From: Escherichia coli
GTDB taxonomy: Bacteria; Pseudomonadota; Gammaproteobacteria; Enterobacterales; Enterobacteriaceae
Length of the DNA stretch: 64,000 bases
Direction: 5' to 3' (one strand)
NCBI RefSeq assembly: GCF_044324875.1
Contig: NZ_CP172185.1
A program made the position numbers and the translations under genes. The notes beneath the pieces were generated by a model. It made no database searches. It worked only from the letters and a program-made list of their open reading frames with translations, and was not told where the DNA came from. Shown one piece after another: positions 4,256 through 39,300 of the stretch (within the stretch, counting starts at the first letter, position 1; every line of letters starts with the position of its first letter).

Positions 4256-4275
4256 CTTGACCTTCCCCTTGCTGG
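4256..4275. repeat. attL core (direct repeat copy 1)
   Basis: 20/20 identity with 39269..39288; lies 70 bp downstream of the int stop. Confidence 0.8.
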
Positions 4276-4344
4276 GGACAAAGAACTGCGTGGTGTAAAA
4301 TAACACCACGCAATATCAATAAGTTACATAACCACTTTAACTCT

Positions 4345-5388
4345 CTACCTCCCTTTTTCCTCAAAATGTGGACACTCAATGGACATATCACATAGCGGAT
4401 TATGCATCACAGCATCGCTTAAATAATCCGGCGAAAAATGCGCATAAGTCATTGTCTGAGATATATCTGCATGACCGAGGATTTTTTGAAGAGAAATAAT
4501 ATTCCCCCCATTCATCATAAAATGGGTGGCAAATGTATGCCTCAATACATGAACCGCTTGACCGTCCGGCAAATTAGGCTTAGCCACCTTCAGTTTCAGC
4601 CTAAACCATTTATAACTCACCCGAAATAAACGCCCCTCCTTGCGATGTTTTACAAGCCTAACAACATCATCAGAAACAGGAACAACCCGACGCTTATTAT
4701 TTTTTGTGAAATTAAATACAACCTTATTACCGATAATATGTTCCCCCATTAGCTGATATGCTTCATTCCAGCGACAGCCTGTAGACAACAAAAGGACAGC
4801 CATTCGGTAATAATCTCCCGAACCCTTGCAGATAGAAAGAAACGCACCAATCTCTTCATGATTAAGATAAGCCATCTCTGGGGTTTTTTCCTTGAGGCGA
4901 GGAAGCGACAATACAGGGTTACTACCGTGATATTCACCAATCTCTGCCATAGCCTTTAACGCAGCGCTAAACGCAAAAAGATCATGGTTGATTGTAGATG
5001 CCTTAACCCCTTGATCGAGACGGCGCGATCTATATTCAGCAACCATGCGTTCATCAATCTCGTACATCATAGGGTCACCCATATCAAGACAAATACACTG
5101 GAGGTTATTCAGTCTACGATTCGCGTAATCCTTGTGACGACCTATCAGTAACCACCACGTCGCAATGAAATCGCTTAAATATCGCTTGTCCAGAAGATTA
5201 CCGAAAACATCAACAGAAGGGCGATCAGCAAGAACTTCGCGTTCAAATGCTACAGCCAGATTTTTTTTCTCAAACTTCCGACGAATGCGCCTTCCCTTAC
5301 TTCCGTCGGGTCGAATGTCCACAAAATAGCGACCATCTTCGAGCTTCTTAATTGACATAAGAAGACCCTCCAACAGTCCATTCTCCAT
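4345..5388 (-). CDS. int: Tyrosine integrase, P2 Int family
   Basis: 347 aa; N-terminus MSIKKLEDGRYFVDIRPDG...RRIRRKFEKK and C-terminal HxLRHTFATHF...GHADISQTMTYAHF catalytic region resemble P2 Int as recalled. Confidence 0.92.
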   Translation of the reverse strand: MENGLLEGLLMSIKKLEDGRYFVDIRPDGSKGRRIRRKFEKKNLAVAFEREVLADRPSVDVFGNLLDKRYLSDFIATWWLLIGRHKDYANRRLNNLQCICLDMGDPMMYEIDERMVAEYRSRRLDQGVKASTINHDLFAFSAALKAMAEIGEYHGSNPVLSLPRLKEKTPEMAYLNHEEIGAFLSICKGSGDYYRMAVLLLSTGCRWNEAYQLMGEHIIGNKVVFNFTKNNKRRVVPVSDDVVRLVKHRKEGRLFRVSYKWFRLKLKVAKPNLPDGQAVHVLRHTFATHFMMNGGNIISLQKILGHADISQTMTYAHFSPDYLSDAVMHNPLCDMSIECPHFEEKGR

Positions 5389-5427
5389 CTTGAAAACAGA
5401 TAGAGAAAACGTATTCCTTATAAAGAG

Positions 5428-5727
5428 TTAACCAGTCTGTTTCCCTGATTGGGGTGACGTTGTTTCGACGTGCCCACAGTGTGCGAGAGCCGGGGCTATT
5501 TGCCCGTGTTCTGGGTCGATGCGGTCATACATAAACCAATTCTGATACTTATGAAAACGGGGGTGACCAAATATCTTAATTGCAGATTCCAATGTCATCT
5601 TAGATTTGTCACGCTCATAGCCGTGATAGGTTGTGTAATTAAGCCCTACTAAATCAACAAATTGCTGTTTTGTTAGCCTTTCCGAATCTCGCATGATCGC
5701 TAACTTTTCACCTTGAGTATTTGACAT
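5428..5727 (-). CDS. C: Immunity repressor, P2 C family
   Basis: 99 aa, same length as P2 C; C-terminal QIAPALAH...ETTSP...G motif resembles P2 C as recalled; divergent from the cox-like gene. Confidence 0.85.
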   Translation of the reverse strand: MSNTQGEKLAIMRDSERLTKQQFVDLVGLNYTTYHGYERDKSKMTLESAIKIFGHPRFHKYQNWFMYDRIDPEHGQIAPALAHCGHVETTSPQSGKQTG

Positions 5728-5768
5728 ATTTACGAGTACTCCATATAGTTACGCAAAAACAACATTCC

Positions 5769-5810
5769 TAGCCTAAAACGGCAAAACACCGTCAAAGGCC
5801 GATTAGGCTA
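5769..5810. promoter_or_regulatory. Nested inverted repeat (tagcctaa ... ttaggcta) in the C / cox-like divergent promoter region; candidate repressor operator
   Basis: 8-bp perfect inverted arms at 5769..5776 and 5803..5810 with inner partial symmetry; sits in the lysogeny/lysis switch intergenic region. Confidence 0.4.
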
Positions 5811-5851
5811 AGCAAGCCTCAATCAATGGCAACCTTGGAGTGTATCAAAAA

Positions 5852-6340
5852 ATGGCAAAACAACGAGATTTTGAACAAATCACGACACATCAGCATTGCC
5901 GTCTCTATCCATTAGACGGCTACATCACGATGAACGTGTGCAAAATGAGTTCAACGCAGGCTGGACGCATACGTGATATGAGTCTGAGCGACTTACAACA
6001 ACAGGAGTTTGTTAGCCCAGAGGAGTTTGCATACATCACGGGGCGCACCTACAAAGCAGCCAAAAACATCATGGACCGAAACGAAAGCCTGCTTATTAAG
6101 GAATACGCCACGCCAGACGCAACACGACCTAAGCGATTTATCAGACTCCAGCACTACTGGGCCGCAATTATCAACAACAAAGCATCGCTGACACCACGCG
6201 AGCATCTATTTATCAATGAGATTCGAAACAACAAAACGCTTTACCGCGAGATGATGAAAATCAATCTCAAGATTCGCGAAGGGCGAGAAGTCTCGAAAAA
6301 AAAACCAAGATACTCCCATCAATCGCAATCAGCGGCATAA
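5852..6340 (+). CDS. Cox-like excisionase/regulator domain protein (162 aa from ATG at 5852; the ORF track opens at GTG 5840)
   Basis: Position equivalent to P2 cox; central region (EFAYITGRTYKAAKNIM...LQHYW) loosely resembles the Cox winged-helix; GGAG Shine-Dalgarno 11 nt upstream of ATG 5852. Confidence 0.5.
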   Translation: MAKQRDFEQITTHQHCRLYPLDGYITMNVCKMSSTQAGRIRDMSLSDLQQQEFVSPEEFAYITGRTYKAAKNIMDRNESLLIKEYATPDATRPKRFIRLQHYWAAIINNKASLTPREHLFINEIRNNKTLYREMMKINLKIREGREVSKKKPRYSHQSQSAA

Positions 6341-6500
6341 CACCAAAAGGAGTTTTCCCATGTGCGACCTGAGCAAAGCAGAGCTAATTGCAATCATATT
6401 GTTTGCCATAGATTTTGGTTTTCTTTTGAGCGGCGCAATTCTCCTTCCTGCAATTAACAGGAAAAATTAATCACCACTGCAAATAACAAGAGCCAACAAC

Positions 6501-6716
6501 ATGACCCCAAGACAAGTATTAATCTCCAAAAATGATGACATATTGCACTTTCAAGTAAAATACATAATAGCCACAACAAAGGTAGGAACATCAATCTATA
6601 TACACTATCAGAATTTCTATCTGGAGAGAGTCTTCGAAACGGAAGGAGAAGCCCAGAAGTTTTTGATACACATAAAAGATTGCATAGAAGGAAAAATAAG
6701 ACCAGGGGATCAATAA
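6501..6716 (+). CDS. Hypothetical early-region protein (71 aa)
   Basis: ORF in early operon orientation, abutting the next ORF; no recognisable motif. Confidence 0.4.
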   Translation: MTPRQVLISKNDDILHFQVKYIIATTKVGTSIYIHYQNFYLERVFETEGEAQKFLIHIKDCIEGKIRPGDQ

Positions 6717-7024
6717 TGCGAAAACATTATTCACAACCATATATCCGTAACAGTGCGCCACGCAGCAATAACCGCTGGAGCCTGCGCGAAACACACGCAA
6801 CACCAGGCGGTCACGTTGTAAAACAAACTGGGGAACACACCCGGCTGATTGAGCAGGCTGGACTCGTGATCCACAGATGCAACCGCAATCCGTTTACCGG
6901 AAACCGCATCTTTGCACTGAGCAGCGGCGACAACCAGTTCGGGCAGGATTTCACGCTACACGAAGCCCTGCGAACTGCCGACCGCTTAATCGCGGGGCGC
7001 AGCTTTCAGCACCCGGATTACTAA
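6716..7024 (+). CDS. Hypothetical early-region protein (102 aa from internal ATG)
   Basis: ORF 6680..7024 with likely start at ATG 6716 directly following the upstream stop. Confidence 0.4.
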   Translation: MRKHYSQPYIRNSAPRSNNRWSLRETHATPGGHVVKQTGEHTRLIEQAGLVIHRCNRNPFTGNRIFALSSGDNQFGQDFTLHEALRTADRLIAGRSFQHPDY

Positions 7025-7067
7025 AGAAAAGTCGGCTTAATAAGCCCTGAGCCAGTCTTAATAAGAC

Positions 7068-7325
7068 ATGAGAGGCGATAAGATGAAAAGAGCCTACAAA
7101 GAAATCGCTAACGACATACTTCAGAATTATCACCTAACCCTTGCGAGCAACGGTGTCGCCTATGATGAGCAATCGTTCCGCGCAATGCAGGGTGGGATTC
7201 TTGGGCTGTATATCGCCGCCACAGCCAGCGGCGACCTCGAAGCGCTGGCAGAATTAAAGGTTATCTATCCGAAAGAACTTGGCGAAGACCTGATTAAACC
7301 CTATCTCATTGAGGAGCTAGCATGA
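7068..7325 (+). CDS. Hypothetical early-region protein (85 aa)
   Basis: ORF in early operon orientation; its stop overlaps an unlisted 40-codon membrane-peptide ORF at 7322..7444. Confidence 0.4.
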   Translation: MRGDKMKRAYKEIANDILQNYHLTLASNGVAYDEQSFRAMQGGILGLYIAATASGDLEALAELKVIYPKELGEDLIKPYLIEELA

Positions 7326-7527
7326 ATATTCTTATCTCGTGGTTAATTCTCATCCTCGCCATTATTTGCGCGGTGGGAATCATGCGAATTATTAACGGCA
7401 TTAAAACCATCGAATCATTATTTACTGGCGACAAGCGCCATAAATAAATAACCGGAAATTACCAGAAAGCAAGAAAACATCCGCAACGGCGGAGGGATTC
7501 CCTTACGCCTGAAATAAGGAGCAGCGA

Positions 7528-7743
7528 ATGAGTAAACCACTAACCAGCATTGAGCGAAAAATTGTTTTTATGAATGTGGCAGGCGTGCAGTTCGAAGTGG
7601 ATAAGCAGGTCATCGTCTCCGAAACGAGATGCCCGGCAGCAGGTGAGCAATGCACCTACCTGACACTGGCAGACGGCACGCAAATAACCGCCGTCACCGA
7701 CACCATTCGCGAGCTTGTGATTATCAGAGGGGTTAAACGATGA
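7528..7743 (+). CDS. Hypothetical early-region protein (71 aa)
   Basis: ORF with AGGAG-type ribosome binding site; stop overlaps the next start (ATGA). Confidence 0.45.
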   Translation: MSKPLTSIERKIVFMNVAGVQFEVDKQVIVSETRCPAAGEQCTYLTLADGTQITAVTDTIRELVIIRGVKR

Positions 7744-7952
7744 CCAGCAAATACACCACCAACGCACGCAAGCCAGGCAAGGAGGCACGTCATCACATTG
7801 CCGTTCTGCGCAATCTCATCATGTGCGAAATCGACGACTTTGTGGCGGGACTGGGCCAGCCGGGCGAGCCAGCAACACCGGGCGAAATACACAAAGAACT
7901 ACGCCGCCGCATAGAAAGCGCGGTGGATTACGTCATGAACCCGAACGACTGA
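7740..7952 (+). CDS. Hypothetical early-region protein (70 aa)
   Basis: Translationally coupled to the preceding ORF. Confidence 0.45.
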   Translation: MTSKYTTNARKPGKEARHHIAVLRNLIMCEIDDFVAGLGQPGEPATPGEIHKELRRRIESAVDYVMNPND

Positions 7953-7992
7953 CCAGAACGCGAGCGCGCGCCGGATGACGCACGCATAACGC

Positions 7993-8478
7993 TTAGCGGG
8001 AAGCGCCAACCGTAAGGCTGGCAATGATTTTTTCGGAGAGTGAGAGAGATTCGCGATGATTAAGACCAAGAGCAGCACAAGCTTTATTGCGCGCCGGGTT
8101 GTCCATGCATTCAAGCACCGGAGAGTCCTGCTTCTCAATTTCCACCAGTCGCGCCAGCAACACCTCCGTGCTGAGACCGTCGCTTTCAGTAATCAGGACG
8201 TTATAGCGATGAGCCTGTTCTTTTGCAGCCTGAGCGCGTCGCCCAAATTTCCAGGCGATATTGCAGCCACTAAGCACAGCCACGATACCACCCAGCAACC
8301 AACTGAAATTGCTGCCTGCAAACACAGTAGCCCCAGACGTAAGGATGACAGCATTAATCACCGTATCCATACGGCGGTTAAACACCTCCGAAATATGTTC
8401 AATCCAGTAACTGTTCCAGAGACGAAACATGACCTCGTGTCGCCGTTCGGCATGATTTTCAGTTGGTTGTCTGTTCAT
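7993..8478 (-). CDS. Two-transmembrane-helix small membrane protein (161 aa), oriented against the early operon
   Basis: Two adjacent hydrophobic helices (VINAVILTSGATVFAG; FSWLLGGIVAVLSGCNIAW) followed by a charged helical tail; opposite strand to every neighbouring early gene; 243-bp upstream region of its own. Confidence 0.6.
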   Translation of the reverse strand: MNRQPTENHAERRHEVMFRLWNSYWIEHISEVFNRRMDTVINAVILTSGATVFAGSNFSWLLGGIVAVLSGCNIAWKFGRRAQAAKEQAHRYNVLITESDGLSTEVLLARLVEIEKQDSPVLECMDNPARNKACAALGLNHRESLSLSEKIIASLTVGASR

Positions 8479-8721
8479 TGCGGTTTAACCCTCCTCATCA
8501 TCTCGCCCCTGCCCTTTTTCAGGCGCGGGAGCCGGTTGCCGTGGCACATGAAATTTATCGCTATCAGACATTTATTTTTTCCCGTGTGTTGTTGAACAAA
8601 GTGCCCGCACAGTTTTGACGGAACGGCGGGCGCTTCAAGCGTAACACACCCTTCTTTTCCGGTTGAAGGCGAAAAAAACCGGACAGCTACCCGACACAAA
8701 CCAGACCAGCGGAGAACTGCC

Positions 8722-9276
8722 ATGTACGCACTTAAACCTATGGGGATACCAGGCAAAGCCCCGGCGCATGTGAAAGCCTGGACACAGCAGGAAGATGATT
8801 TGCTGATCACCCTGTACCCGCAGCACACAGCACGAGATATCGCCGGACGTCTGGGGCGCAGCTACGAAGGAGTTTGCGGCCGCATTTCTCGTCTGCGTGA
8901 ACAGGGCAGGATTGGCATCAAGCAGCAAAGACTAAGCGATGAGATGATCGCCACGCTCATCAGGAACCGCCACACCAGGTCCCTCAAGGAACTGGCACAC
9001 ATGGCGAAAGTTTCGACACGCACGGTAACCAACCGATTGAGGGCGCTGGGCTACAGCCTGATCAAATGCGGGGATCTGCATAAAAACACCGTCTACAGCG
9101 ACCGCATCGTTGAGATTATCAGACAGTTACACGACGAGGAGGGCCTGACGTTCAGGGAAATCGCACAGCGCCTTAGCCACGAACTACAGCCGAACCCTAC
9201 CCCGACACTGGCTCAACGTCTCTACTGGCGGTGCACAGCATCCGACGCCGTATTCCGTGAACTGTTACCAGATTGA
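8722..9276 (+). CDS. Putative DNA-binding protein with three tandem helix-turn-helix-like repeats (184 aa)
   Basis: Three ~40-aa segments each with a similar pattern (e.g. ...ARDIAGRLGRSYEGVCGRISRL / ...LKELAHMAKVSTRTVTNRLRALG / ...FREIAQRLSHE). Confidence 0.5.
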   Translation: MYALKPMGIPGKAPAHVKAWTQQEDDLLITLYPQHTARDIAGRLGRSYEGVCGRISRLREQGRIGIKQQRLSDEMIATLIRNRHTRSLKELAHMAKVSTRTVTNRLRALGYSLIKCGDLHKNTVYSDRIVEIIRQLHDEEGLTFREIAQRLSHELQPNPTPTLAQRLYWRCTASDAVFRELLPD

Positions 9277-9394
9277 GCAATCACCATGTACACACAAAAA
9301 AACCGCTTGCAACAACAAACCGGAACAGGGTACGCTTCCCCCGCACCTCATAAAGCGGGTGCCGGGTTTCGCAGCCTGCTGACTAGCAAAGCGC

Positions 9395-9417
9395 ACAACC
9401 GCGCCAGCGGTTTTTTT
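9395..9417 (+). terminator. Intrinsic terminator-like hairpin plus T7 within the 320-bp non-coding stretch after the 8722..9276 gene
   Basis: aaccgc-gcca-gcggtt followed by ttttttt. Confidence 0.45.
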
Positions 9418-9596
9418 GTGCGTACTGTATTGCCACGTCTTTTTCGCACACGAATTATGGCGGGGCGTACGGGGCCGACTTCGGTCGGGCCGGGTTCTTT
9501 GCTAGCCGGTACTGCGAACCTCGTACGTCTCGCCACCCACAGTTTCGCAGCTCTGGATGGTGAGTTTTTAAAACTTACTAGCAAAGAGGCCACACC

Positions 9597-9815
9597 ATGG
9601 CAAACCGCAAACAGCGCCGCGCTACTGCGGAGCATCACCACGTCCGCGCCCAAATCGACAAACGCCTTTTCCGCGCATCACGCGTTGCACGCATCATGCA
9701 CATCAACATGCTGCATGAACGCAGAGGGGCACTACCGAACACCTATATCGCCTCCGTTTTCAGCTATCTGGCGGACGATCTCGCCGAGCTGCAACGCCTC
9801 ATTAACCAGCACTGA
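9597..9815 (+). CDS. Hypothetical protein (72 aa)
   Basis: ORF preceded by an AAGAGG Shine-Dalgarno at 9584..9589. Confidence 0.45.
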   Translation: MANRKQRRATAEHHHVRAQIDKRLFRASRVARIMHINMLHERRGALPNTYIASVFSYLADDLAELQRLINQH

Positions 9816-9887
9816 TAAACATCCCGAAGCCATCCTGCGCCCGTTCGCGGGAGGCTTCCACACATCTGTAGTCGGGAGGATTGCGCC

Positions 9888-10256
9888 ATGATTCTGGCTG
9901 ACGATTTTCTGGAGTACCTGAACAACACCGAGCGCGACCTGTACGCGCGCGTTCTCACCCGTTACGAGAAATACAAACTTTCACTGCCAGAGCATCAACT
10001 CCGCGAAGGCGATATCGACATTGAAGGGCGCTACATCGTCAGGCGCCGCATAGCGGGCTACGGCATCTGGCGTGTCACCGGACGTGAGCATTCATTGCTG
10101 ACCATCTGCCAGAGTCCGTCCGGCGTGATAACGGAGATCGTCGCCGATAGTCTGCGACTCACCCATCACAGCGCCACCCCGGAAGAAACGCTGGCAGAAA
10201 CCCAGCGTCTGTGTCGCGTCATTGCCAACGCCGCCCTCCGCGCAGACAGGAGGTAA
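9888..10256 (+). CDS. Hypothetical protein (122 aa) immediately upstream of gene A
   Basis: ORF in early operon orientation, ends 4 nt before the A start. Confidence 0.5.
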   Translation: MILADDFLEYLNNTERDLYARVLTRYEKYKLSLPEHQLREGDIDIEGRYIVRRRIAGYGIWRVTGREHSLLTICQSPSGVITEIVADSLRLTHHSATPEETLAETQRLCRVIANAALRADRR

Positions 10257-10259
10257 GCG

Positions 10260-12749: not shown

Positions 12750-13156
12750 ACCGTTATCATTGTGTACTGCCGCGCCACTACTTCGGTCAGATTATGCGCT
12801 CGCGTATTCCGGCGGTCACGCTGCGAAACCTGAGCACGGTACCGCAGCCGGGCGATGAGCTGGAAATCGCCGTAGCAGGCCCTGACCGTTCAGCCAGCTG
12901 CGTGACCGCCGACGTGCTGAACGCCGTGCCCGTAGGTGGTGACTGGCTGGTTGCCATCCGCTTCCGCCAAGACCCGTTCGCACCTGAACCGCTCACCCCC
13001 GCAGGCCGCATCATGCAGAACTGGCGGGATGAAGGCGCGAAGGCGAACTGCGAAAAACTGATTAACAGGATTGCCACGACAAACCGACATGCCGCGCTGG
13101 CGCGCCGGATATACCCCGCAAAACCGACACAACCAACAGGAGTAAAACGCCCATGA
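12746..13156 (+). CDS. Hypothetical protein (136 aa), start overlaps the gene A stop
   Basis: ATGA overlap with A; unknown function. Confidence 0.5.
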   Translation: MNRYHCVLPRHYFGQIMRSRIPAVTLRNLSTVPQPGDELEIAVAGPDRSASCVTADVLNAVPVGGDWLVAIRFRQDPFAPEPLTPAGRIMQNWRDEGAKANCEKLINRIATTNRHAALARRIYPAKPTQPTGVKRP

Positions 13157-13292
13157 AAAGAATCGCCGGAACCCACAGAGACACAAAAAGACACCAAAAG
13201 CAGCAAAGACACATTGAATAAACGAAAACTGGTGATATGATTTGTTCAAAGATGTTATGATTTATTCATAAGTAACCTTTCAGGCTTAAGTT

Positions 13293-14050: not shown

Positions 14051-14063
14051 AGTGTGCAATAAA

Positions 14064-14090
14064 CAGCCCCGGTCGGGGCTGTTTTTTATT
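14064..14090. terminator. Bidirectional intrinsic terminator between the converging 13664..14050 and 14086..14460 genes
   Basis: cagcccc-ggtc-ggggctg hairpin followed by ttttttatt. Confidence 0.6.
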
Positions 14091-27345: not shown

Positions 27346-27348
27346 ACC

Positions 27349-29840: not shown

Positions 29841-29883
29841 GCGGGGAAAAGGAACGGGCATTCATAAATAATTCATCATGCAG

Positions 29884-29903
29884 GTGCCGCAAGAATGCGG
29901 CAC
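29884..29903. terminator. Hairpin (gtgccgc-aagaat-gcggcac) between the converging G and U genes
   Basis: 7-bp perfect stem in the 70-bp gap between convergent gene ends. Confidence 0.45.
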
Positions 29904-29910
29904 ATTACCT

Positions 29911-30399: not shown

Positions 30400-30410
30400 G
30401 CGAGGTACTC

Positions 30411-33400: not shown

Positions 33401-33932
33401 CTTTCAGTTTTCCCGCCATCTCCTGAGCGCGGAAATATTGCTGGCGTGCCTGCGTGACGCGTGCCAGAGTCTGCCGTTCACGTTCCAGCTGTTCGTTGTA
33501 TTGCTGTGTTCGCCGTATGGCCTGTTGAATGGTGTTGTCACTGCCGGAAAGCGCAATACCGTGACGCCGCAGCTCACCACCCAGTTCGCGCATTCGCTGA
33601 ACTTCACGCGCACGGACCTCATTGAGACGCTCAAGTTTGAGGCTCAAATCGTTCATCAGCTTTTTCTGTTTGTCAGACAGCACGGTTCCGGCGCGCTGAA
33701 TTTGCTGAAGTGCGCTTAACTGGCGTTGTGCCCGGGCAATGCCGTTTCCGGCCTTGTTTGCAGCCTCGCGGGCGCGATCAAATGAACGGGCGTGGCGTTC
33801 CAGGTTTTTGATCGCACCCTGCGTTCTCTGTATGGAGTCGCCAAGCTGGCCCATCATGCGACGGGCGTTTTCGGTGGGACGGGTCAGCCTGTCAACAGCG
33901 CTGAAGGCGACCCGTATATCAAGCGTTTTCAT
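30411..33932 (-). CDS. T: Tail tape measure protein (gpT-like), 1173 aa from the ATG overlapping the E' stop, with Pro/Val-rich repetitive C-terminus
   Basis: Very long Ala/Gly/Leu-rich ORF following the E/E' chaperone pair; the ORF track start at 33968 is an over-extension. Confidence 0.85.
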   Translation of the reverse strand: MKTLDIRVAFSAVDRLTRPTENARRMMGQLGDSIQRTQGAIKNLERHARSFDRAREAANKAGNGIARAQRQLSALQQIQRAGTVLSDKQKKLMNDLSLKLERLNEVRAREVQRMRELGGELRRHGIALSGSDNTIQQAIRRTQQYNEQLERERQTLARVTQARQQYFRAQEMAGKLKAGGFTAVGTAAAGGYAAGRFLQPAVSFGKEMSRVQALTRIDKNSPQFKALREQALKLGSETQFTAGDAASGQAFLAMAGFTPQAIQAALPGVLNLATASGMDLGQTADISSNILTQFGLSADQMNRVGDTLAATFTRTNTDLRGLGETMKYTGPVAASLGLSLEQTAAMTGLLGSMGIRGSDAGTALRSSLSRLVNPPKAAAKALKQLGVETQDAYGNMRPMEDILYELYQATRKYGNAAKVSFFSDIAGQEAYVSLMSLVEQAGEKNLPRLTREIQAANGELEENARIMADNLDGDLKSLNSAWEGLRIRVADLVDGPLRSVTQSFTRVIAKVTALAQAHPELTKQLLIAGGALLAAVAATGALSLATGVLLGPLAKLRLGFSLLTGTSGLGRALPLLTQLRGVLGGSMSGIGGWRVLFAGLDTGAGRLAVRLRGVRGLLGTLRGGLLAAFTSPGGALLSLGRGIGMLALRLSGLPALWGMVSGAVGALGGALGFLLSPVGLVVAALVGAAVLIWRHWDQLKAVVGGYLSGLWQGLTPLREAVAPLGPIFEYVGQTIGRVWQWFVDLFAPVSTTKDELDKCTEAGRTFGQKVGEFISNLVTGPVTLLVDSLTRVLEKLGLIPSAVERARKKAEELKQKELLNEKAAMLLADVNVINPPQNDKDKKPPVPAPAATAPLTGENTGTMRRLNKIVDNTGGLLDEAKQAKKRTGPGDIIFKNLPEALAVRGEWKEERFNRAASLLPGSVSEPPVRLPQVPSVSVPSLPPLPAPPPVSVSPLISTTANVSPVVKPVVSVNNVPVIPPVVRPVLSGNITPVVSPVIKPVMTHDVMPTFSPLMTPVMAAISRPVLEAVRELMLVIDAGIVRAPQPVSSVMAESVAPVISPAIKPVMAGDVIPTLSPVIKPVVSGNIAPVMTPVVTATSRPVVEAVRQPISPASPRPRQSDPAPWGLTGELHIHLHDVHTQNPRELAKMVGDAVRAEMERRIRQTVGSFRDRD

Positions 33933-34445
33933 GCTCTGCGTTCCCGCTGCGAAGGGCCGCCCGCTCACGCCAGGCGACCACCTCGCCGGGATCCATCAGG
34001 AAGATTTCAGCGGGAGACCAGTTGAAAATAACGGCGATATCCGCCACAAAGTCTTCAATATGCTCAAAGGGCACGACGGTTATCAGCCTGCCGTCGCCGC
34101 CACGCTCTTCCCGCCAGAGTCCTGACCGGCCAAAAAATTAACCGCCACCCCGCACAGCTGAATAAAATCAGCGGACCCCATGCGCTTAAGCATAACCTCG
34201 TCCAGTCGCGGCGAAGTGACGCGCGGGAGTAACTCAAACATCGCGTCCGTTTTCATGTTCAGCACGTCAAGCAGTGACAGCCCGCGCAGTGAACCGGCCT
34301 GCTGTACAGCAGGCGTGATTTCCACATACGTGATTTTTTTGTTACCGAGCACAAGGGGTGTTTTCAGTGTCACGCCGCGCTCACTGGTCACGTCAGCCAC
34401 ATCAGCACCGTCAGTAACAGGGGCAACAACCGGATTTTCTTTCAT
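33919..34445 (-). CDS. Tail assembly chaperone frameshift product E+E' (programmed -1 frameshift at 34131..34137)
   Basis: Manual translation in the -1 frame after T_TTT_TTG gives an extended product ending at TGA 33919..33921, overlapping the tape measure start. Confidence 0.7.
34083..34445 (-). CDS. E: Tail assembly chaperone, P2 gpE family (zero-frame product)
   Basis: 120-aa ORF upstream of the tape measure gene; carries the slippery heptamer near its 3' end. Confidence 0.8.
   Translation of the reverse strand: MKENPVVAPVTDGADVADVTSERGVTLKTPLVLGNKKITYVEITPAVQQAGSLRGLSLLDVLNMKTDAMFELLPRVTSPRLDEVMLKRMGSADFIQLCGVAVNFLAGQDSGGKSVAATAG
34131..34137 (-). promoter_or_regulatory. Programmed -1 ribosomal frameshift heptamer T TTT TTG (E to E')
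   Basis: Heptamer in frame as (AA)T TTT TTG in the last part of E; conserved mechanism in tail chaperone genes. Confidence 0.7.
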
Positions 34446-34494
34446 GAATAAAACCTCAAATCAGGGGCGACGCCACGCGCCGCCGTGGAAAACA

Positions 34495-35013
34495 TTAACC
34501 ACCAAGACCAATCGCCGAGCGCACGCGGTCCGGGAAGACGCTTTTGCCGTCCTTGCGTTCGATGTGGTTCAGTAAATCAATCTCCAGCACCGGACGGTCG
34601 TTAATGCTGAGTTTGTAGTAGGTACTTTTGACCGCATAGGTGTGAGACGTGACCTCACCCTGTTTGGCCTCCCCGGTATCAATTTCCGTCACGCGACCGC
34701 GAAGCTCAATCTCGTACAGGTCACTCTGTTCTTCATCGTTGTAGTACTCACCGACAAAGCGCAGCAGCGTACCGTCAATCGTGCCGCCGTACTTGAGGAA
34801 CAGTTCGCGGGTCGGCCCGCCCATGGTGAAACTCGCATCCAGCGCGCCGTCATCCAGGCCAAGGTCGATATTTACTGCACCGGCCATACCACCACCGCGA
34901 TAGGCTTCCGTTTTACGGGTCAGTTTGGGGGGCGTGAAGCCGGTCACCCTGCCAATCTGGTTCACCCCGTCAGTAAACAGCGTGAACACCCTGAGATTTT
35001 TTGGTACGGCCAT
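34495..35013 (-). CDS. FII: Tail tube protein, P2 gpFII family
   Basis: 172 aa between the sheath and E genes. Confidence 0.8.
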   Translation of the reverse strand: MAVPKNLRVFTLFTDGVNQIGRVTGFTPPKLTRKTEAYRGGGMAGAVNIDLGLDDGALDASFTMGGPTRELFLKYGGTIDGTLLRFVGEYYNDEEQSDLYEIELRGRVTEIDTGEAKQGEVTSHTYAVKSTYYKLSINDRPVLEIDLLNHIERKDGKSVFPDRVRSAIGLGG

Positions 35014-36296
35014 TAAGCACCTCCAAGCGTCGCAAATGCAGGACCAAAGAATTCATCAGTAAACGTCTGGTAAAGTTCCATATCCTCAAGCGGCGGAACG
35101 GGCGTGTACTTGTAGCGGATACGCACGCGTCCCTGACGAAGTTCCGTGGTGCTGTTATCCACCACGTCATACCAGCACTCCGCACCAACGAGACGTCCTG
35201 ACGTAACCAGCGCATCCAGTTTTGCGCGAATTGCGCTTAACACGTCTTTCACATTAGCAGGGGTCAGCGGGGCATCAATCGTTTCAAACTGCGCTTCCGC
35301 AACAGAATCAGCCAGCACCTGAGCGGTTCGCGTGTACACCTCAAAGATATACGCCTTCGTTTCCGGCGTACGGTTGCCCCAGAAGCGGAAACCGTTACGG
35401 CGAATGATGGTGGTGATTTCCTTGTTGTTGAGATTGTTGGCATCGCTGTCTTCGGACTGAAGGGACCAGAACACCCGGCTGGAAATACCCAGCACATTTC
35501 TTACCGGCACGTTGGACAGCGATTTATGCCAGCCCTGTTCGTGGTCAATACGTGCACGTAAACCGCAGGCGTACGCCGCAGCCGGGAAGACCTCATTAGC
35601 GCCGGATTTCGGGTTATAGGCGATGAAGTCAGGCCAGAGCAGCATAAGTTCGCGCTCGTTAAATCTGGCGCGGTAGCTGATTGCATCAGCGGGCTTCTTG
35701 CAGTTGTGACAGCCCGCGTAGACAAATGCGCGAAGTTTTTCTGCAATTACACACAGGGATTTTGTGACAGCTTCAGTATCCAGTCCGGGAGCTGCGATGA
35801 TGCGCGGACGGTAACCGATGGCATCATCCTGTTCAGCTATCAGAAGTGCATACATACCGGTATAATTACCGTCGCCATCCGTGCCACCAATGACATACTG
35901 GTCCTGCGTTTTGTGTGGGTATACAGGATGTGCATCTTCAGACTCATCAATACCAAAAAATGCCCTGTCTTCAGGATCCAGATGACCGAATGATGTAACT
36001 CCTGTATCCGGGGCGCCCTGAGAACTGGCATCAGGAACGCGCACCACAATCACCTTCGTGCTCACCTGGTCGGCGACAGCCTTAAGCGATTTGTAAAGCG
36101 TCCCCTTTGTGCCGGCCTTACCCAGCACATCACTGACGCGGGTCAGCAGTGTGGGTTTGTTCAGCGGGAACAGAGTTTCATCCGCGTCATCTGCCGTAGC
36201 CACAATACCAATAACACTGGAATCCACATCATTAATGGCGGTGGCAAGGCCGGTACTTTCCCTTACGCGCGCACCATGAAAGCGTGTTTCACTCAT
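35013..36296 (-). CDS. FI: Tail sheath protein, P2 gpFI family (427 aa from ATG 36296)
   Basis: Motifs collinear with P2 FI as recalled (LNKP, KGTLY, EQGWHK, GFRFWGNRT, NYTRTAQV, YTPVPPLE); the ORF track start at 36443 is an over-extension. Confidence 0.88.
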   Translation of the reverse strand: MSETRFHGARVRESTGLATAINDVDSSVIGIVATADDADETLFPLNKPTLLTRVSDVLGKAGTKGTLYKSLKAVADQVSTKVIVVRVPDASSQGAPDTGVTSFGHLDPEDRAFFGIDESEDAHPVYPHKTQDQYVIGGTDGDGNYTGMYALLIAEQDDAIGYRPRIIAAPGLDTEAVTKSLCVIAEKLRAFVYAGCHNCKKPADAISYRARFNERELMLLWPDFIAYNPKSGANEVFPAAAYACGLRARIDHEQGWHKSLSNVPVRNVLGISSRVFWSLQSEDSDANNLNNKEITTIIRRNGFRFWGNRTPETKAYIFEVYTRTAQVLADSVAEAQFETIDAPLTPANVKDVLSAIRAKLDALVTSGRLVGAECWYDVVDNSTTELRQGRVRIRYKYTPVPPLEDMELYQTFTDEFFGPAFATLGGA

Positions 36297-36369
36297 ATGT
36301 TTCACCCTTGTCTGGCTGGTTGATTTTGCGTAATCATTACCCACACACGCGGTAATCTCACCCCTTTGA

Positions 36370-36393
36370 TGTTGTCTCCTGACAGCGACAACA
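36370..36393. promoter_or_regulatory. Perfect dyad TGTTGTC-N10-GACAACA containing TGT-N12-ACA, candidate Ogr-dependent late promoter element shared by divergent FI and D
   Basis: Read directly; fits the TGT-N12-ACA dyad characteristic of P2 late promoters; lies in the 160-bp FI/D divergent region. Confidence 0.5.
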
Positions 36394-36457
36394 AAACAGC
36401 CATTCAACGCCGCTACGGTGCATGAAACCATTACAGAACGCACCAGGAGAGAACACC

Positions 36458-37549
36458 ATGAAAGAGCTGTCAGTTACCGTTCCGTCACCGGATATCGACA
36501 TCACCATCAACAACAACACACTGGCAAACCTCACAGAGCGACTCATGACGCTGACCCTGACGGATAACCGGGCCTTTGAGGCAGACCGCGTCACCCTCAC
36601 CCTTGACGATACGGACGGGCAGTTACAGTTGCCACCACGTGGCGCACGCCTGAGAGTGATGATTGGCTGGCGCGGGGAGGCGCTGGTTAACAAGGGTGTC
36701 TACATCGTTGATGAAGTGACGTGGGAAGGCCCGCCGGACAAACTGACCATCACCGCCAGCAGCGCCGATTTTCGCGAAGAGTTCAACGTGAAGCGTGAAG
36801 TCTCCTGGCACGACGTGACGGTAAAACAGGTTGTGTCAGCCATCGCGCACCGCTACGGCCTGAAAGCACAGATAAGCGATATCCTCATGGATATCGAAAT
36901 TGACCACGCAGACCAGACCGAAGAGAGTGATATATCCTTCCTGACCCGCATGGCTGAAATGCTGGGTGCGATTGCCACCGTAAAAAACGGCAGCCTGTTA
37001 TTCATTCTGCCGGGTGGCGGAACCGGGCCGGACGGAAAAGCCCTGCCTTCGTTCGCCATTACCCGCAGCAGCGGCGACAGTCACCGCTTTCGCATTGCTG
37101 ACCGTGATGCGTATACGGGGGTCCGGGCGCACTGGCTCGATCTGAAGTTCGGGCAAAAGAAAAAAGTGAACGTGAAGCGACGCAGGGAAGCCGGGAAACA
37201 GAAACAGGAGAAGAGCAGCAGCCGGGAAGGTGATTACATGGAAGGCGCGGAAGGTAACGTCTACGTTCTGCGCAGGACTTACCAGAATGAAGAAACCGCA
37301 CGACGTGCAGCAGCTGCAAAGTGGCAGGAACTACAGCGGGGCGCGGCATCATTCTCCATCACGCTGGCGCGCGGTCGTGCCGACCTGTACCCTGAAATGC
37401 ACGGCAGGGTAACAGGTTTTAAAAGCGAGGTGGACAATCAGGACTGGATTATTGCCAGGGTGGAGCACAGCATAGATGAAAGCGGCTTCACCACACAACT
37501 GGAGCTGGAAGCGAAAATCCCCGAATGGATAGCAGATTCAGGCGGATAA
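36458..37549 (+). CDS. D: Tail protein D (gpD-like), 363 aa from ATG 36458
   Basis: Size and position before ogr as P2 D; AGGAGA ribosome binding site upstream of ATG 36458. Confidence 0.8.
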   Translation: MKELSVTVPSPDIDITINNNTLANLTERLMTLTLTDNRAFEADRVTLTLDDTDGQLQLPPRGARLRVMIGWRGEALVNKGVYIVDEVTWEGPPDKLTITASSADFREEFNVKREVSWHDVTVKQVVSAIAHRYGLKAQISDILMDIEIDHADQTEESDISFLTRMAEMLGAIATVKNGSLLFILPGGGTGPDGKALPSFAITRSSGDSHRFRIADRDAYTGVRAHWLDLKFGQKKKVNVKRRREAGKQKQEKSSSREGDYMEGAEGNVYVLRRTYQNEETARRAAAAKWQELQRGAASFSITLARGRADLYPEMHGRVTGFKSEVDNQDWIIARVEHSIDESGFTTQLELEAKIPEWIADSGG

Positions 37550-37592
37550 AATTAAAATGAGCCATCTCCACTCAGCCAGATAAGGAGAAGCC

Positions 37593-37844
37593 ATGTTCCG
37601 TTGTCCCCTGTGCGGTGCATCCGCACGTATCCGCACCAGTCGCAATGAAAATGATTCAGGCACAGTTCGCCTGAAGTACTACCAGTGCAATAACCTCGAA
37701 TGCGGGATCGGCTTTACCACACTGGAGGGTTTTAACAAATTCACATCAAAACGCGCCCCGTCGCCGCAGGGTACAGAGCGGATACCGTGGGAAGATTTTC
37801 CGGGATCTCACAGGGGGAATGCTCAGATGAATCTTGATATTTAA
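37593..37844 (+). CDS. ogr: Zinc-finger late gene activator, Ogr/Delta family
   Basis: 83 aa with CPLC...C-x4-C zinc-finger spacing and N-terminus MFRCPLCG resembling P2 Ogr (MFHCPLC...). Confidence 0.88.
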   Translation: MFRCPLCGASARIRTSRNENDSGTVRLKYYQCNNLECGIGFTTLEGFNKFTSKRAPSPQGTERIPWEDFPGSHRGNAQMNLDI

Positions 37845-37962
37845 GAACAATAATCAGGTTGAGAGGACATCATAAGGCAAGTAGATTAACGGCAGATACT
37901 TTCCCGCAACCACGGGCAAGTATTTAATTATCCATGATGAAATATGACCTAAATTGTTTTTT

Positions 37963-37988
37963 GCCCGCCGGAAAGCGGGCATTTTTTT
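37963..37988 (+). terminator. Intrinsic terminator 1 of the ogr-attR array (gcccgc-cggaaa-gcgggc plus T8)
   Basis: Hairpin and T-run read directly. Confidence 0.75.
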
Positions 37989-38202
37989 ATTCTTTTGTGG
38001 TTATGGGGTCATCAGGAACCACGTGCAGATTATATTTTTGTTTTTTTGGCGTTCCTCCGGCAGCAACGAGTTCATCAATAAGACACTGACACGCCTGAAC
38101 ATCCCGGGCATGTCTTAGTTTCACCTTTATTGATTTAACCTTATCCTCACCGGAGGAGAAATGCAGTTCAATCTCAATATCGTTTCTTCGGAACAATCTC
38201 AT
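37987..38202 (-). CDS. Hypothetical small protein (71 aa) between ogr and attR
   Basis: ORF on the minus strand; no recognisable motif. Confidence 0.4.
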   Translation of the reverse strand: MRLFRRNDIEIELHFSSGEDKVKSIKVKLRHARDVQACQCLIDELVAAGGTPKKQKYNLHVVPDDPITTKE

Positions 38203-38429
38203 ACGCCCCCCTGAATATATCAGAAATGCTAGTATCGAAAAATGAGAAAACAGTTAGACAGGAGAAACATATTAACACAAATCATTTATACCTATAGATG
38301 AAATTATAATTTCATTCATGAATATGATAGATAACTATATTGTGAACAAAATGAAAAATGGCTAAATTAAAAATGGGCATGGAGGAATGCCTCGTAATCA
38401 GTAATACATGATCCATACTTCCTTGTTTT

Positions 38430-38455
38430 GCCCGCCGGAAAGCGGGCATTTTTTT
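38430..38455 (+). terminator. Intrinsic terminator 2 of the array (identical hairpin gcccgc-cggaaa-gcgggc plus T8)
   Basis: Identical stem-loop to terminator 1. Confidence 0.75.
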
Positions 38456-38631
38456 GGCGGTTACCATCGCCTCACCTTCCTGGTTCACACAAAGCAACCC
38501 TGATTTTCCATGAAAACTTCAGGGTTGAGCCAAAAGCACAAAGACAGTAGATTAACCAAGGGTACCCGCCACCTGCCAACAGGAACGGTATCCAGTACGT
38601 ATTAATGACTGACAATTCACATTGCTGTTTT

Positions 38632-38657
38632 GCCCGCCAGAAGGTGGGCATTTTTTT
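38632..38657 (+). terminator. Intrinsic terminator 3 of the array
   Basis: gcccgcc-agaa-ggtgggc hairpin plus T7. Confidence 0.7.
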
Positions 38658-38834
38658 GGCAGTTATCATGGACGCACCTTCATGACACATATTAAGCAGA
38701 CCTGATTTTTCCATGAAAAATTCATGGTTGAGACAAAAGCACAAAAACAGTAGATTAACCACGGGTGCCTGCCACCTGACAACAGGAAGGGGTGTCCATT
38801 ATCCATGATATACAAACGAAAAGTCTTGTCTTTT

Positions 38835-38861
38835 GCCCGCCGTTGCGCGGGCTTTTTTTTT
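38835..38861 (+). terminator. Intrinsic terminator 4 of the array
   Basis: gcccgc-cgttgc-gcgggc hairpin plus T9. Confidence 0.7.
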
Positions 38862-38890
38862 GCCACCCTCACCAGTGAGGGTACCATCAT

Positions 38891-39178
38891 TCAGAGGCGC
38901 GTAAGCCACCCGGCGTTAACATCCTGCCCGTCAACCCTGACCGCAGAGTCTGAACGGCAGGCACCGGAAGCAGTACCAAAAACACCTCTGACAAGTTCCG
39001 CCACCTTCCCGATATCATCAGGCGCCACATTCCTCACCTCGACAGTGATCCGTGGCGTACCATCATCGTTAACAAGCGTGGCTTTAAGGCTGGTACGACG
39101 GGCAAATAACATCAACACCCCCTCCCTTCGGTTCGTTGCACTGGCAGCACGATACCACCAGGAAAAAGAAAAGCCCAC
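38891..39178 (-). CDS. Hypothetical protein (up to 95 aa) adjacent to attR
   Basis: ORF on minus strand; several possible starts; no motif recognised. Confidence 0.35.
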   Translation of the reverse strand: MGFSFSWWYRAASATNRREGVLMLFARRTSLKATLVNDDGTPRITVEVRNVAPDDIGKVAELVRGVFGTASGACRSDSAVRVDGQDVNAGWLTRL

Positions 39179-39203
39179 AACGTCAGGATTGCGGGCTTTT
39201 TTT
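39172..39203 (+). terminator. Intrinsic terminator 5, last phage element before the copA promoter
   Basis: gcccacaa...ttgcgggc hairpin followed by ttttttt. Confidence 0.6.
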
Positions 39204-39268
39204 CTTCAAAAATGGACACTACGTGGACACTGATTAAATAATCCTTTCTTAATCAGACTGTTAAAATG

Positions 39269-39288
39269 CTTGACCTTCCCCTTGCTGG
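39269..39288. repeat. attR core (direct repeat copy 2)
   Basis: Identical to 4256..4275. Confidence 0.8.
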
Positions 39289-39300
39289 AAGGTTTAACCT
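39270..39300 (+). promoter_or_regulatory. copA promoter with CueR-type dyad (TTGACC -35 followed by CCTTCC-N7-GGAAGG)
   Basis: ccttccccttgctggaagg dyad read directly about 50 bp upstream of the copA ATG; matches the MerR-family copA operator as recalled. Confidence 0.75.

What the first reader, a model, noticed from the sequence alone, without database searches (positions are those of the whole stretch)
4256..39300. Prophage integrated on a 20-bp core overlapping the copA promoter; CueR dyad intact only at attR
The direct repeat cttgaccttccccttgctgg contains the copA -35 and the left half of the CueR dyad. At attR the full dyad is regenerated directly upstream of copA, now with phage DNA and a phage terminator immediately upstream. 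At attL only the left half-site remains, facing glsA. Integration may therefore alter the upstream context of copper-regulated copA and the divergent glsA promoter.
Basis: partly seen in the sequence, partly recalled or inferred. Interest (0 to 1): 0.55.

Follow-up and report, generated by a model that had tools for sequence, protein, structure and literature searches.

The report
P2-like prophage inserted in copA promoter
A 35-kb P2-type prophage has inserted, by ordinary site-specific recombination, into the copper-regulated copA promoter and rebuilds that promoter exactly at one end; it belongs to an apparently undescribed group of phage integrases that use this conserved regulatory site as their docking point in several enterobacterial genera.

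Summary
An exact 20-bp direct repeat, CTTGACCTTCCCCTTGCTGG (4256-4275 and 39269-39288), brackets a 35,013-bp P2-like prophage between glsA and copA. The repeat holds the copA -35 hexamer, the left CueR half-site, the 7-bp dyad spacer and 2 nt of the right half-site.

attR is base-for-base identical to the uninterrupted site from about -38 through the copA start codon. attL keeps only the left half-site.

The attP layout matches P2: terminator, two TGTGGACAC-type arm repeats 11 bp apart, an AT-rich tract, the core, then arm repeats overlapping the int 3' end.

Of 5,422 E. coli genomes with this locus, 20 are interrupted, all by this phage family (three lineages, same right-hand boundary). Every integrase at least 58% identical with readable flanks sits beside a copA-promoter core, also in Citrobacter, Rouxiella and Rahnella. 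Two contigs carry the unintegrated attP, one with a core base change that matches its host.

This is conservative, target-regenerating integration. A change in copA or glsA regulation is possible but unsupported. I found no published description of this site. It is a new member of a known kind, of moderate interest.

The parts
3133..4065 (-). glsA (ybaS) glutaminase A, the host gene left of attL. 190 nt of native upstream DNA (4066-4255) are retained.
   Evidence: ORF list; RefSeq annotation of a near-identical lysogen.
4256..4275 (+). attL core (B-O-P' junction): copA -35 TTGACC (4257-4262), left CueR half-site ACCTTCC (4260-4266), spacer CCTTGCT (4267-4273) and GG. It is followed by phage GGACA, so the right half-site is lost.
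4285..4314 (-). 12-bp-stem hairpin between int and the core. In this lineage a T-rich tail follows on the int-sense strand. It is the probable int 3' terminator or insulator facing glsA.
   Evidence: Terminator scan. Fold z-score -3.5. A hairpin at the same position but with different sequence is present in the other lineages examined: folded for B, C and the Rouxiella locus L024 and seen by eye in further attP/attL flanks.
4367..4387 (+). P' arm: two direct arm-type Int sites, TGTGGACACT and AATGGACATA, 11 bp apart, just inside the int 3' end.
   Evidence: Same consensus (tgTGGaCa; PMC3448106), spacing and position as the annotated P2 P' arm.
4345..5358 (-). Tyrosine integrase of P2 type, 337 aa; the ORF could extend to 5388. 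It is transcribed toward attL and glsA.
   Evidence: PHROG integrase E=6e-68. 46% identical to P2 Int, with R, H-x-x-R, H and Y columns invariant.
5428..5727 (-). P2 C-type immunity repressor, 99 aa.
   Evidence: phrog_147, E=4e-32, full length.
5840..6340 (+). First early gene, in the position of cox. It is a possible Cox-like excisionase/repressor with an N-terminal extension.
   Evidence: 24% identity to P2 Cox over 78 aa, pairwise E=0.003. 42% identity to the equivalent gene of the attP contig L012. No Pfam or PHROG hit.
4276..39268 (.). Body of the P2-like (Peduoviridae) prophage. The element is 35,013 bp counting one core copy. It carries A nickase (10260-12749), a cargo/toxin-antitoxin slot (13293-15893), Q/P (15960-18766, minus strand), O-N-M-L...H-G (to 29840), the tail block U-T-E-FII-FI on the minus strand (29911-36443), D (36422-37549) and ogr (37593-37844).
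39169..39205 (+). Bidirectional intrinsic-terminator-like hairpin just before the P arm. It is positionally equivalent to the P2 terminator for the ogr/F-operon transcripts.
   Evidence: Scan. Fold z-scores -3.8 (+ strand) and -5.3 (- strand). P2 annotation.
39211..39231 (+). P arm: two direct arm-type Int sites, ATGGACACT and CGTGGACACT, 11 bp apart. The proximal repeat lies 45 bp from the core start, against 46 bp in P2.
   Evidence: Conserved in lineages A, B and C and in the attP contigs.
39232..39268 (+). AT-rich tract between the P arm and the core (ATTAAATAATCCTTTCTTAATCAG...). It resembles the annotated IHF site of P2 (AATAAATCCTTTTATTTCAAT...) and now forms the -39 to -75 region of copA.
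   Evidence: The similarity is by eye and position only; binding was not tested.
39269..39288 (+). attR core (P-O-B' junction), the start of the regenerated copA promoter.
39270..39300 (+). Intact PcopA: -35 TTGACC (39270-39275), 19-bp spacer containing the full CueR dyad ACCTTCC-CCTTGCT-GGAAGGT (39273-39293), and -10 TAACCT (39295-39300).
   Evidence: Read from the sequence. Identical to the empty site L011. CueR box and spacer as published (PMC8169799).
39341..41845 (+). copA, the Cu(I)-exporting P-type ATPase.

Best explanation
The element is an apparently complete P2-family prophage. It integrated by heterobivalent tyrosine-integrase recombination of the P2 type (Int, arm sites, a probable IHF site and a probable Cox-like factor). 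The attB it used is the upstream half of the CueR-regulated copA promoter.

Strand exchange took place inside the 20-bp stretch shared by attP and attB. Because the phage carries its own copy of the -35 hexamer, the left CueR half-site and the dyad spacer, the promoter is rebuilt exactly at attR. The attL junction is a dead hybrid with no right half-site and no -10.

The phage terminator and the int-side hairpin insulate copA and glsA from phage transcription. The expected outcome is normal CueR control of copA in the lysogen.

This site is the dedicated target of an integrase clade whose members are at least about 57% identical to each other and 46% identical to P2 Int. The clade probably uses it because the sequence is functionally frozen across Enterobacterales and has the dyad geometry of a recombinase core.

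Shown: the anatomy, regeneration of the promoter, site specificity, distribution across genera, existence of attP forms, and phage/host covariation of a core base.

Inferred: that the crossover lies around the dyad spacer (CCTTGCT), that Int core sites overlap the CueR half-sites, and that regulation is unchanged.
For: - **Repeat and empty site.** The 20-bp repeat is exact and not expected by chance. The empty site equals attL-left + core + attR-right.
- **P2-type attP.** Layout, arm consensus and spacing match P2: terminator, P arm, AT-rich tract, core, P' arm overlapping the int 3' end (PMC3448106).
- **Prophage genes.** Integrase with catalytic residues and the P2 gene set are confirmed in the window and in RefSeq annotation of a near-identical lysogen.
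- **Occupancy in E. coli.** 5,402 of 5,422 genomes have an intact site. The 20 interrupted ones are 17 integrase-bearing elements plus 3 integrase-less remnants of this family.
- **Site specificity.** All 17 full-length int copies in E. coli lie at this site.
- **Common boundary.** Three lineages (Int 82% identical between A and B) share the same right boundary after CTGG. Lineages B and C have 28-29 bp of identity with attB.
- **Clade-wide association.** All 22 IMG/VR relatives with at least 58% identity and readable flanks have the core, with 0-2 changes, 78-124 nt after int. All 11 relatives with readable flanks at 51% identity or below lack it.
- **Other genera.** The site is occupied in Citrobacter, Rouxiella and Rahnella.
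- **Free attP forms.** L012/L036 has phage genes on both sides of the core. L046 carries the variant core CTTGATGG, which matches its host's copA promoter.
- **Promoter determinants.** A PcopA fragment from -40 to +14 supports the CueR activation complex (PMC8169799).
Against: - No expression data exist for any lysogen.
- DNA upstream of -38 is replaced, so a possible UP-element or alpha-CTD contribution could change.
- A probable IHF site and Int arm sites now lie 1-60 bp upstream of the -35.
- A promoter-like match, TGGACA-18-AATAAT (10 of 12), in the P arm points at copA.
- The Cox assignment is weak.
- The cleavage positions are not mapped.
- The exact-match scans were biased toward invariant cores. 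The BLAST- and protein-based searches were not.
Confidence: 0.85

Rival explanations
1. Integration measurably rewires host regulation. New upstream DNA (IHF/Int sites, terminator, a possible P-arm promoter) changes basal or induced copA transcription. Separation from the intact dyad, or read-through from int, changes glsA-ybaT expression.
For: - Native DNA upstream of -38 is replaced.
- A promoter-like site in the P arm faces copA.
- int is co-oriented with glsA, and the intervening hairpin has only a modest T-tail.
- ybaST is copper-induced and divergent from copA (PMC9628877; PMC10903455).
Against: - All known PcopA determinants are regenerated.
- Sister lineages even rebuild -39 to -47.
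- Copper induction of ybaST is reported as not directly CueR-linked.
- 190 nt of native DNA upstream of glsA are untouched.
- Insulating hairpins are conserved at both junctions.
- Use of the same site across genera argues for low fitness cost.
Confidence: 0.2
2. The overlap with the CueR operator is incidental. The integrase simply recognises a conserved 20-mer, its core-binding sites and crossover do not coincide with the CueR half-sites, and CueR plays no part in integration or excision.
For: - The right half-site is not conserved in attP of lineages A and B (GGGGACA, GGTTTTT).
- The dyad within the lineage A attP (TCCCC-N5-GGGGA) is centred 1 bp away from the CueR dyad centre.
- P2-type integrases commonly use intergenic sites with no known regulatory role (PMC3448106).
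Against: - Any 6-8-bp overlap region inside the 20 bp forces Int protomers to cover part of the 21-bp CueR operator, so physical overlap on attB is close to unavoidable.
- attP of lineages C and D keeps 5-6 of the 7 right half-site bases.
- The spacer base that varies between hosts covaries in attP.
- In P2 the CCC-N6-GGG dyad lies at nearly the same distance from the arm sites.
Confidence: 0.35
3. The element is a fixed, no longer mobile island, and the repeat is only a historical scar.
For: - Many occupants of this site are decayed: IS421 or IS1 insertions, deletions, and a 2.85-kb remnant in Citrobacter amalonaticus.
- The near-identical copy in strain Ch1 has a broken tape-measure gene.
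Against: - In the window every essential P2 gene that was checked is a full-length ORF, including an intact 1,185-aa tape measure.
- Both att sites and all four arm repeats are intact.
- Five genomes, from chicken and human isolates sampled in Russia and elsewhere, carry copies that are at least 99% identical.
Confidence: 0.25

Closest known systems
Bacteriophage P2 Int/attP recombining with E. coli attB locI (P2-type heterobivalent tyrosine integrase system)
   Same: - Order of elements: terminator, P arm, IHF-type tract, core, Cox region, then P' arm overlapping the int 3' end.
- Arm repeats of the tgTGGaCa type, 11 bp apart.
- Arm-to-core spacing of 45 versus 46 bp.
- int and the C repressor transcribed toward att.
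- A short dyad (CCC-N5/6-GGG) in the core.
   Different: - Int is only 46% identical.
- The core is 20 bp (28-29 bp in sister lineages), unrelated in sequence to the 27-bp P2 core.
- attB is the operator and -35 of a regulated promoter rather than an anonymous intergenic site.
- The putative Cox is barely recognisable.
- The tail genes FI to U are inverted relative to P2.
Phages that integrate into tRNA or tmRNA genes and regenerate the gene (186, HP1, Fels-2/SopE-phi among P2-like phages)
   Same: attP carries a copy of part of a highly conserved functional host element, so one junction rebuilds it exactly. Conservation of the target gives a broad host range for the att site (PMC3448106).
   Different: The rebuilt element is a sigma-70 promoter with a MerR-type operator, not an RNA gene. 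The arm sites are of P2 type, not 186 type (tgccGCCActt).
Regulatory-switch prophages ('active lysogeny', such as the comK or sigK/spsM interrupting elements; recalled from general knowledge, not tested here)
   Same: The prophage sits inside a functional host genetic element.
   Different: Those elements inactivate the host gene while integrated. Here the promoter is intact at attR, so no on/off switch is implied.

Membership tests
P2-type integrase/attP recombination module | Tyrosine recombinase with the catalytic R...H-x-x-R...H...Y residues and similarity to P2 Int. | tested here: met
   46% identity to P2 Int over the full length; invariant R206, H280, R283, H306 and Y315. PHROG integrase E=6e-68.
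P2-type integrase/attP recombination module | At least two direct arm-type repeats with consensus tgTGGaCa on each side of the core. | tested here: met
   P arm 39211-39231 and P' arm 4367-4387, each with two repeats 11 bp apart in the same orientation as P2. Consensus from PMC3448106.
P2-type integrase/attP recombination module | A common core identical in attP and attB; attL and attR are hybrids. | tested here: met
   20-bp exact repeat. Empty sites. attP contigs L012/L036 and L046.
P2-type integrase/attP recombination module | IHF site between the P arm and the core. | tested here: inconclusive
   An AT-rich tract at the right position resembles the annotated P2 IHF site. No binding data and no statistical test.
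P2-type integrase/attP recombination module | Cox-type excisionase/repressor as the first early gene. | tested here: inconclusive
   The gene is in the right position. It shows 24% identity to P2 Cox over 78 aa, pairwise E=0.003. No Pfam or PHROG hit.
P2-like (Peduoviridae) prophage | P2 structural and replication gene set (Q P O N M L ... V W J I H G, FI FII E T U D, ogr, A). | tested here: met
   PHROGs on window ORFs. RefSeq annotation of near-identical lysogen Ch1. Partial DNA similarity to P88/Xuanwuvirus.
P2-like (Peduoviridae) prophage | P2 gene order, with FI-FII-E-T-U-D as one rightward operon. | tested here: not met
   U-T-E-FII-FI lie on the minus strand (29911-36443) while D and ogr are on the plus strand. 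Lineage B has the same arrangement. This is a variant arrangement within the family.
CueR-dependent MerR-type promoter (PcopA) | -35 and -10 separated by 19 bp, with CCTTCC-N7-GGAAGG in the spacer overlapping the -35 by 3 bp. | tested here: met
   At attR, 39270-39300, identical to the empty site. Definition from PMC8169799. At attL the feature is not met: the right half is GGGGACA and there is no -10 (no promoter call).
Target-regenerating integration | One junction reproduces the native functional sequence exactly. | tested here: met
   The attR core and the displayed 70 nt to its right, which run past the copA ATG, are identical to the empty site of strain 7/2 (L011).
Regulatory-switch ('active lysogeny') prophage | The host function is disrupted while the prophage is integrated. 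| tested here: not met
   The promoter and the copA ORF are intact at attR.

The most novel reading that the evidence does not exclude
The phage attachment site and the CueR operator are the same piece of DNA, so CueR (bound in both apo and Cu(I) forms) and RNA polymerase would compete with Int at attB and attR. Lysogenisation or excision would then depend on copper status or CueR level.

In hosts where cueR is divergent from copA, with its start codon only 8-9 nt from the core, insertion removes everything upstream of cueR. The gene is left directly downstream of the co-oriented phage C-int operon, so expression of the copper sensor would become phage-dependent.
Probability: 0.2. Interest if true: 0.7.

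Novelty: new member of a known kind. Interest (0 to 1): 0.42.

Why it matters
- **A new attachment specificity.** It defines an att site for P2-type integrases that I could not find in the searchable literature or in deposited phage genomes. The closest deposited full-length integrase match is 53% identical, and the lineage A attP junction is absent from IMG/VR.
- **A different kind of anchor.** A transcription-factor operator inside a promoter can serve a temperate phage as a conserved, regenerable anchor in the way tRNA genes do.
- **Practical use.** The attB is present once in 5,422 of 5,426 complete E. coli genomes and in other Enterobacterales, so this Int/attP pair is a candidate orthogonal integration tool.
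- **A caution for copper studies.** Copper-regulon or copA-reporter work in lysogens should take account of the changed upstream DNA.
- **A testable question.** It can now be asked directly whether a host metal sensor gates phage integration or excision.

Tried and rejected
- **Chance repeat or transposition-type target duplication.** Rejected: zero matches are expected by chance, the integrase and arm sites are of P2 type, and attP forms exist.
- **The small 10-18-kb occupants as satellites or distinct islands.** Rejected: they are decayed lineage B prophages with IS421 insertions and deletions.
- **Massilia and Gemmatimonadetes hits to the core.** Treated as chance matches inside GC-rich DNA. 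No arm repeats or integrase signal were seen in the displayed flanks.
- **Salmonella genome announcements containing 'P2-like' and 'cuer'.** False text matches.
- **Karlsson et al. 2006 on P2-like integration sites.** Not held in the library, so I cannot exclude that the site is mentioned there.
- **Pfam and PHROG searches for the cox-position gene and the 73-aa ORF next to attR.** No hits.
- **Rfam on the ogr-attR cargo slot.** Only sub-threshold noise.
- **BLAST of that slot against deposited phages.** No match.
- **Direct CueR control of glsA through the shared dyad.** Considered as a reason for a glsA phenotype. The only literature statement found says the copper induction is not directly CueR-associated.

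Full report
**1. The observation**

The 20-mer CTTGACCTTCCCCTTGCTGG occurs exactly twice in the window, at 4256-4275 and 39269-39288. None is expected by chance, even allowing two mismatches. The neighbouring bases differ on both sides, so the repeat is exactly 20 bp.

To the left lies glsA (3133-4065, minus strand). To the right lies copA (39341-41845, plus strand).

In prophage-free E. coli the two host flanks overlap by precisely these 20 bp. For example, strain 7/2 gave matches at 530756-531065 and 530466-530775. The empty site reads attL-left + core + attR-right.

**2. What lies between the repeats**

The interval is 35,013 bp counting one core copy. It encodes:

- a tyrosine integrase next to attL
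- a P2 C-type repressor
- the A replication nickase
- portal, terminase, scaffold, capsid, lysis, baseplate, fibre, sheath, tube and tape-measure genes
- D and ogr

PHROGs confirm the key proteins in the window itself. RefSeq annotation of a near-identical lysogen, strain Ch1, agrees. DNA similarity to deposited phages is patchy; P88/Xuanwuvirus matches at 77-86% over small parts.

**3. The promoter claim**

At attR the sequence from 39269 reads C-TTGACC-TTCCCCTTGCTGGAAGGTT-TAACCT. That is a -35 hexamer, a 19-bp spacer and a -10 hexamer, with the dyad ACCTTCC-N7-GGAAGGT in the spacer.

[quoted passage not shown] The core plus the 70 nt to its right shown, which run past the copA ATG, are identical to the empty site.

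If the -10 hexamer is placed at -12 to -7, phage DNA starts at about -39. At attL the right half-site reads GGGGACA, and no -10 follows at a usable distance (no promoter call).

**4. attP architecture**

P2's annotated attP runs as follows: ogr/F-operon terminator, Int P arm, IHF site, 27-bp core, Cox sites, then the Int P' arm overlapping the int 3' end. The window element, joined at its core, has the same order:

| Feature | Window coordinates | Evidence |
|---|---|---|
| Hairpin with T-run | 39169-39205 | fold z-scores -3.8 and -5.3 |
| P arm, two TGGACAC repeats 11 bp apart | 39211-39231 | |
| AT-rich tract resembling P2's IHF site | 39232-39268 | |
| Core | 39269-39288 / 4256-4275 | |
| P' arm, two repeats 11 bp apart | 4367-4387, just inside the int 3' end | |

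The repeat consensus is the published P2-type arm consensus tgTGGaCa (PMC3448106). The distance from the proximal P-arm repeat to the core is 45 bp here and 46 bp in P2.

P2's core contains CCC-N6-GGG. The lineage A attP contains TCCCC-TTGCT-GGGGA, centred at nearly the same distance from the arm. This places the likely crossover around the CueR dyad spacer; that placement is an inference.

The "phage terminator immediately upstream" is therefore a standard part of P2-type attP, not a special feature of this insertion.

**5. Population data in E. coli**

- Of 5,422 complete genomes that contain the locus, 5,402 have it uninterrupted.
- The 20 interrupted genomes are 17 with an integrase next to glsA and 3 with an integrase-less remnant bounded by IS1.
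- All 17 full-length copies of this integrase gene in the collection lie at this site. The other hits cover only the 96-bp conserved N-terminal coding segment.

Three lineages occupy the site:

- **Lineage A:** the window and 4 other genomes, at least 99% identical.
- **Lineage B:** Int 82% identical to A. Three full-size prophages of 36-39 kb, plus decayed remnants of 10-18 kb carrying IS421.
- **Lineage C:** remnants in strains 33-6, 58-3 and CP131_Sichuan, plus IMG/VR prophages.

All three share the same right boundary of identity, immediately after CTGG. In lineages B and C the identity extends 8-9 bp further left (TATTAATTT or ATTAATTT), which reproduces native copA upstream sequence.

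**6. Beyond E. coli**

Exact-core scans found occupied sites in Citrobacter youngae, C. amalonaticus, Rouxiella silvae and Rahnella ecdela. The C. amalonaticus site has attL and attR only 2.85 kb apart, around a broken int and an acyltransferase gene.

A protein-based scan of IMG/VR gave 80 integrase relatives.

- All 22 with at least 58% identity and at least 110 nt of downstream sequence have the core, with 0-2 changes, 78-124 nt after int.
- All 11 with readable flanks at 51% identity or below have unrelated sequence there.

Two contigs carry the unintegrated attP.

- **L012/L036** has a baseplate gene and cargo on the P-arm side, and int, C and replication genes on the other.
- **L046** has the variant core CTTGACCTTCCCCTTGATGG.

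Exact-protein look-ups of the neighbouring CueR proteins recovered empty copA-cueR divergons.

- The variant host's promoter carries the same C-to-A change in the dyad spacer as the L046 attP and the L064 attL. Identity again ends right after ...ATGG.
- In the Rouxiella-type host the phage arm matches the native sequence for 9 further bases after a single mismatch at position 21.

The integrases of the five lineages compared are 57-82% identical to the window's, and P2 Int is 46% identical.

**7. Mechanism**

What is shown:

- P2-type site-specific recombination at a core that is the upstream half of PcopA
- exact regeneration of the promoter at attR
- strict site specificity
- co-evolution of the attP core with host promoter variants

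What is inferred:

1. **Int and CueR sites overlap.** The 6-8-bp overlap region must lie inside the 20 bp. Int protomers must therefore cover part of the 21-bp CueR operator, so their binding sites on attB and attR overlap.
2. **Regulation is unchanged.** A -40..+14 PcopA fragment supports the complete CueR activation complex, and sister lineages rebuild even more of the upstream DNA.
3. **Why this site.** It is functionally frozen across genera and has a 7-7-7 dyad geometry like a recombinase core.

For glsA, 190 nt of native upstream DNA remain. int reads toward glsA, but a 12-bp-stem hairpin with a T-rich tail (4285-4314) intervenes. Hairpins of different sequence occupy the same position in the other lineages. 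Copper induction of ybaST is reported as not directly CueR-associated (PMC10903455).

**8. What remains open**

- No expression data exist.
- A promoter-like match in the P arm (TGGACA-18-AATAAT, 39213-39242) points at copA.
- A probable IHF site now abuts the -35 element.
- The Cox assignment is weak.
- In divergon hosts the cueR start codon is 8-9 nt from the core. The prophage therefore replaces everything further upstream and places the co-oriented int gene there. How cueR is transcribed in those lysogens is unknown. This is the most interesting unexplored consequence.

**9. Novelty and verdict**

I found no paper that names this site. The survey of P2-like integrases and att sites does not mention copA or cueR. 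One relevant older paper was not available. No deposited phage has a full-length integrase match above 53% identity, and the lineage A attP junction is absent from IMG/VR.

Mechanistically this is ordinary P2-type integration with target regeneration. The new elements are the target, an operator and -35 element inside a regulated promoter, and the breadth of the clade that uses it.

I class it as a new member of a known kind. It is of moderate interest, with a minority chance of real regulatory cross-talk between CueR and the phage recombination machinery.

Noticed in passing
window 37850-38900: The cargo slot between ogr and attR holds 3-4 tandem units of about 100 nt (spacing about 203 bp). 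Each has a promoter-like TTGAGA-17-TAGATT, a 5' stem-loop, a roughly 37-nt unpaired stretch and a near-identical strong terminator (TGCCCGCC...GGGCA followed by T7). This is an sRNA-like architecture. There is no Rfam family and no match in deposited phages.
   Followed up: partly
window 29911-36443: The tail genes U-T-E-FII-FI are on the minus strand while D and ogr are on the plus strand. In P2 they form one rightward operon, FI...D. Lineage B prophages have the same inverted block.
   Followed up: partly
window 39213-39242: A sigma-70 promoter-like match, TGGACA-18-AATAAT (10 of 12), lies inside the Int P arm and points toward copA. The same match can be read in the lineage C attR flank shown, but not in the L012/L025-type arms. 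This is a consensus match only.
   Followed up: no
window 4276 / 39289 (position 21 after the core); L117, L025, L012: The first base after the core always differs between attP and attB (A in the host; G or T in the phage). This holds even in lineages where the next 6-9 bases are again identical to the host. As a result attP and attL carry GGGAGG instead of the CueR half-site GGAAGG.
   Followed up: partly
L013, L024, L117, L042-L069 (other genera): In hosts with a copA-cueR divergon the cueR start codon is only 8-9 nt from the core. The prophage therefore separates cueR from all native upstream DNA and places the co-oriented int gene there.
   Followed up: partly
window 13293-15893: The P2 'old/tin' cargo slot between A and Q carries a DUF6516 protein with a regulator, an HTH protein with a RelE-family toxin, and a 234-aa hypothetical protein.
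   Followed up: no
ogr-attR slot in related loci (L006 36153-36917; L025 4048-5154; L005 10476-11387; L012 10733-11242): The same slot next to attR carries different cargo in each lineage: a DNA methyltransferase (lineage B), an acyltransferase (C. amalonaticus remnant), hok plus a serine acetyltransferase (strain 33-6), and a zinc-ribbon membrane protein (L012). It behaves as a variable hotspot directly upstream of copA.
   Followed up: no
window 145-1500 and L001 1-16535: In this strain a TolC-family outer-membrane protein gene and a giant BapA/SiiE-type adhesin gene lie beyond ybaT. In strain 33-6, cueR lies directly beyond ybaT. glsA-ybaT is therefore not adjacent to cueR here.
   Followed up: no
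window 38891-39112 (minus strand): A 73-aa ORF is annotated as hypothetical in RefSeq. It starts just inside the attR-side terminator and reads away from copA. It has no PHROG hit.
   Followed up: no
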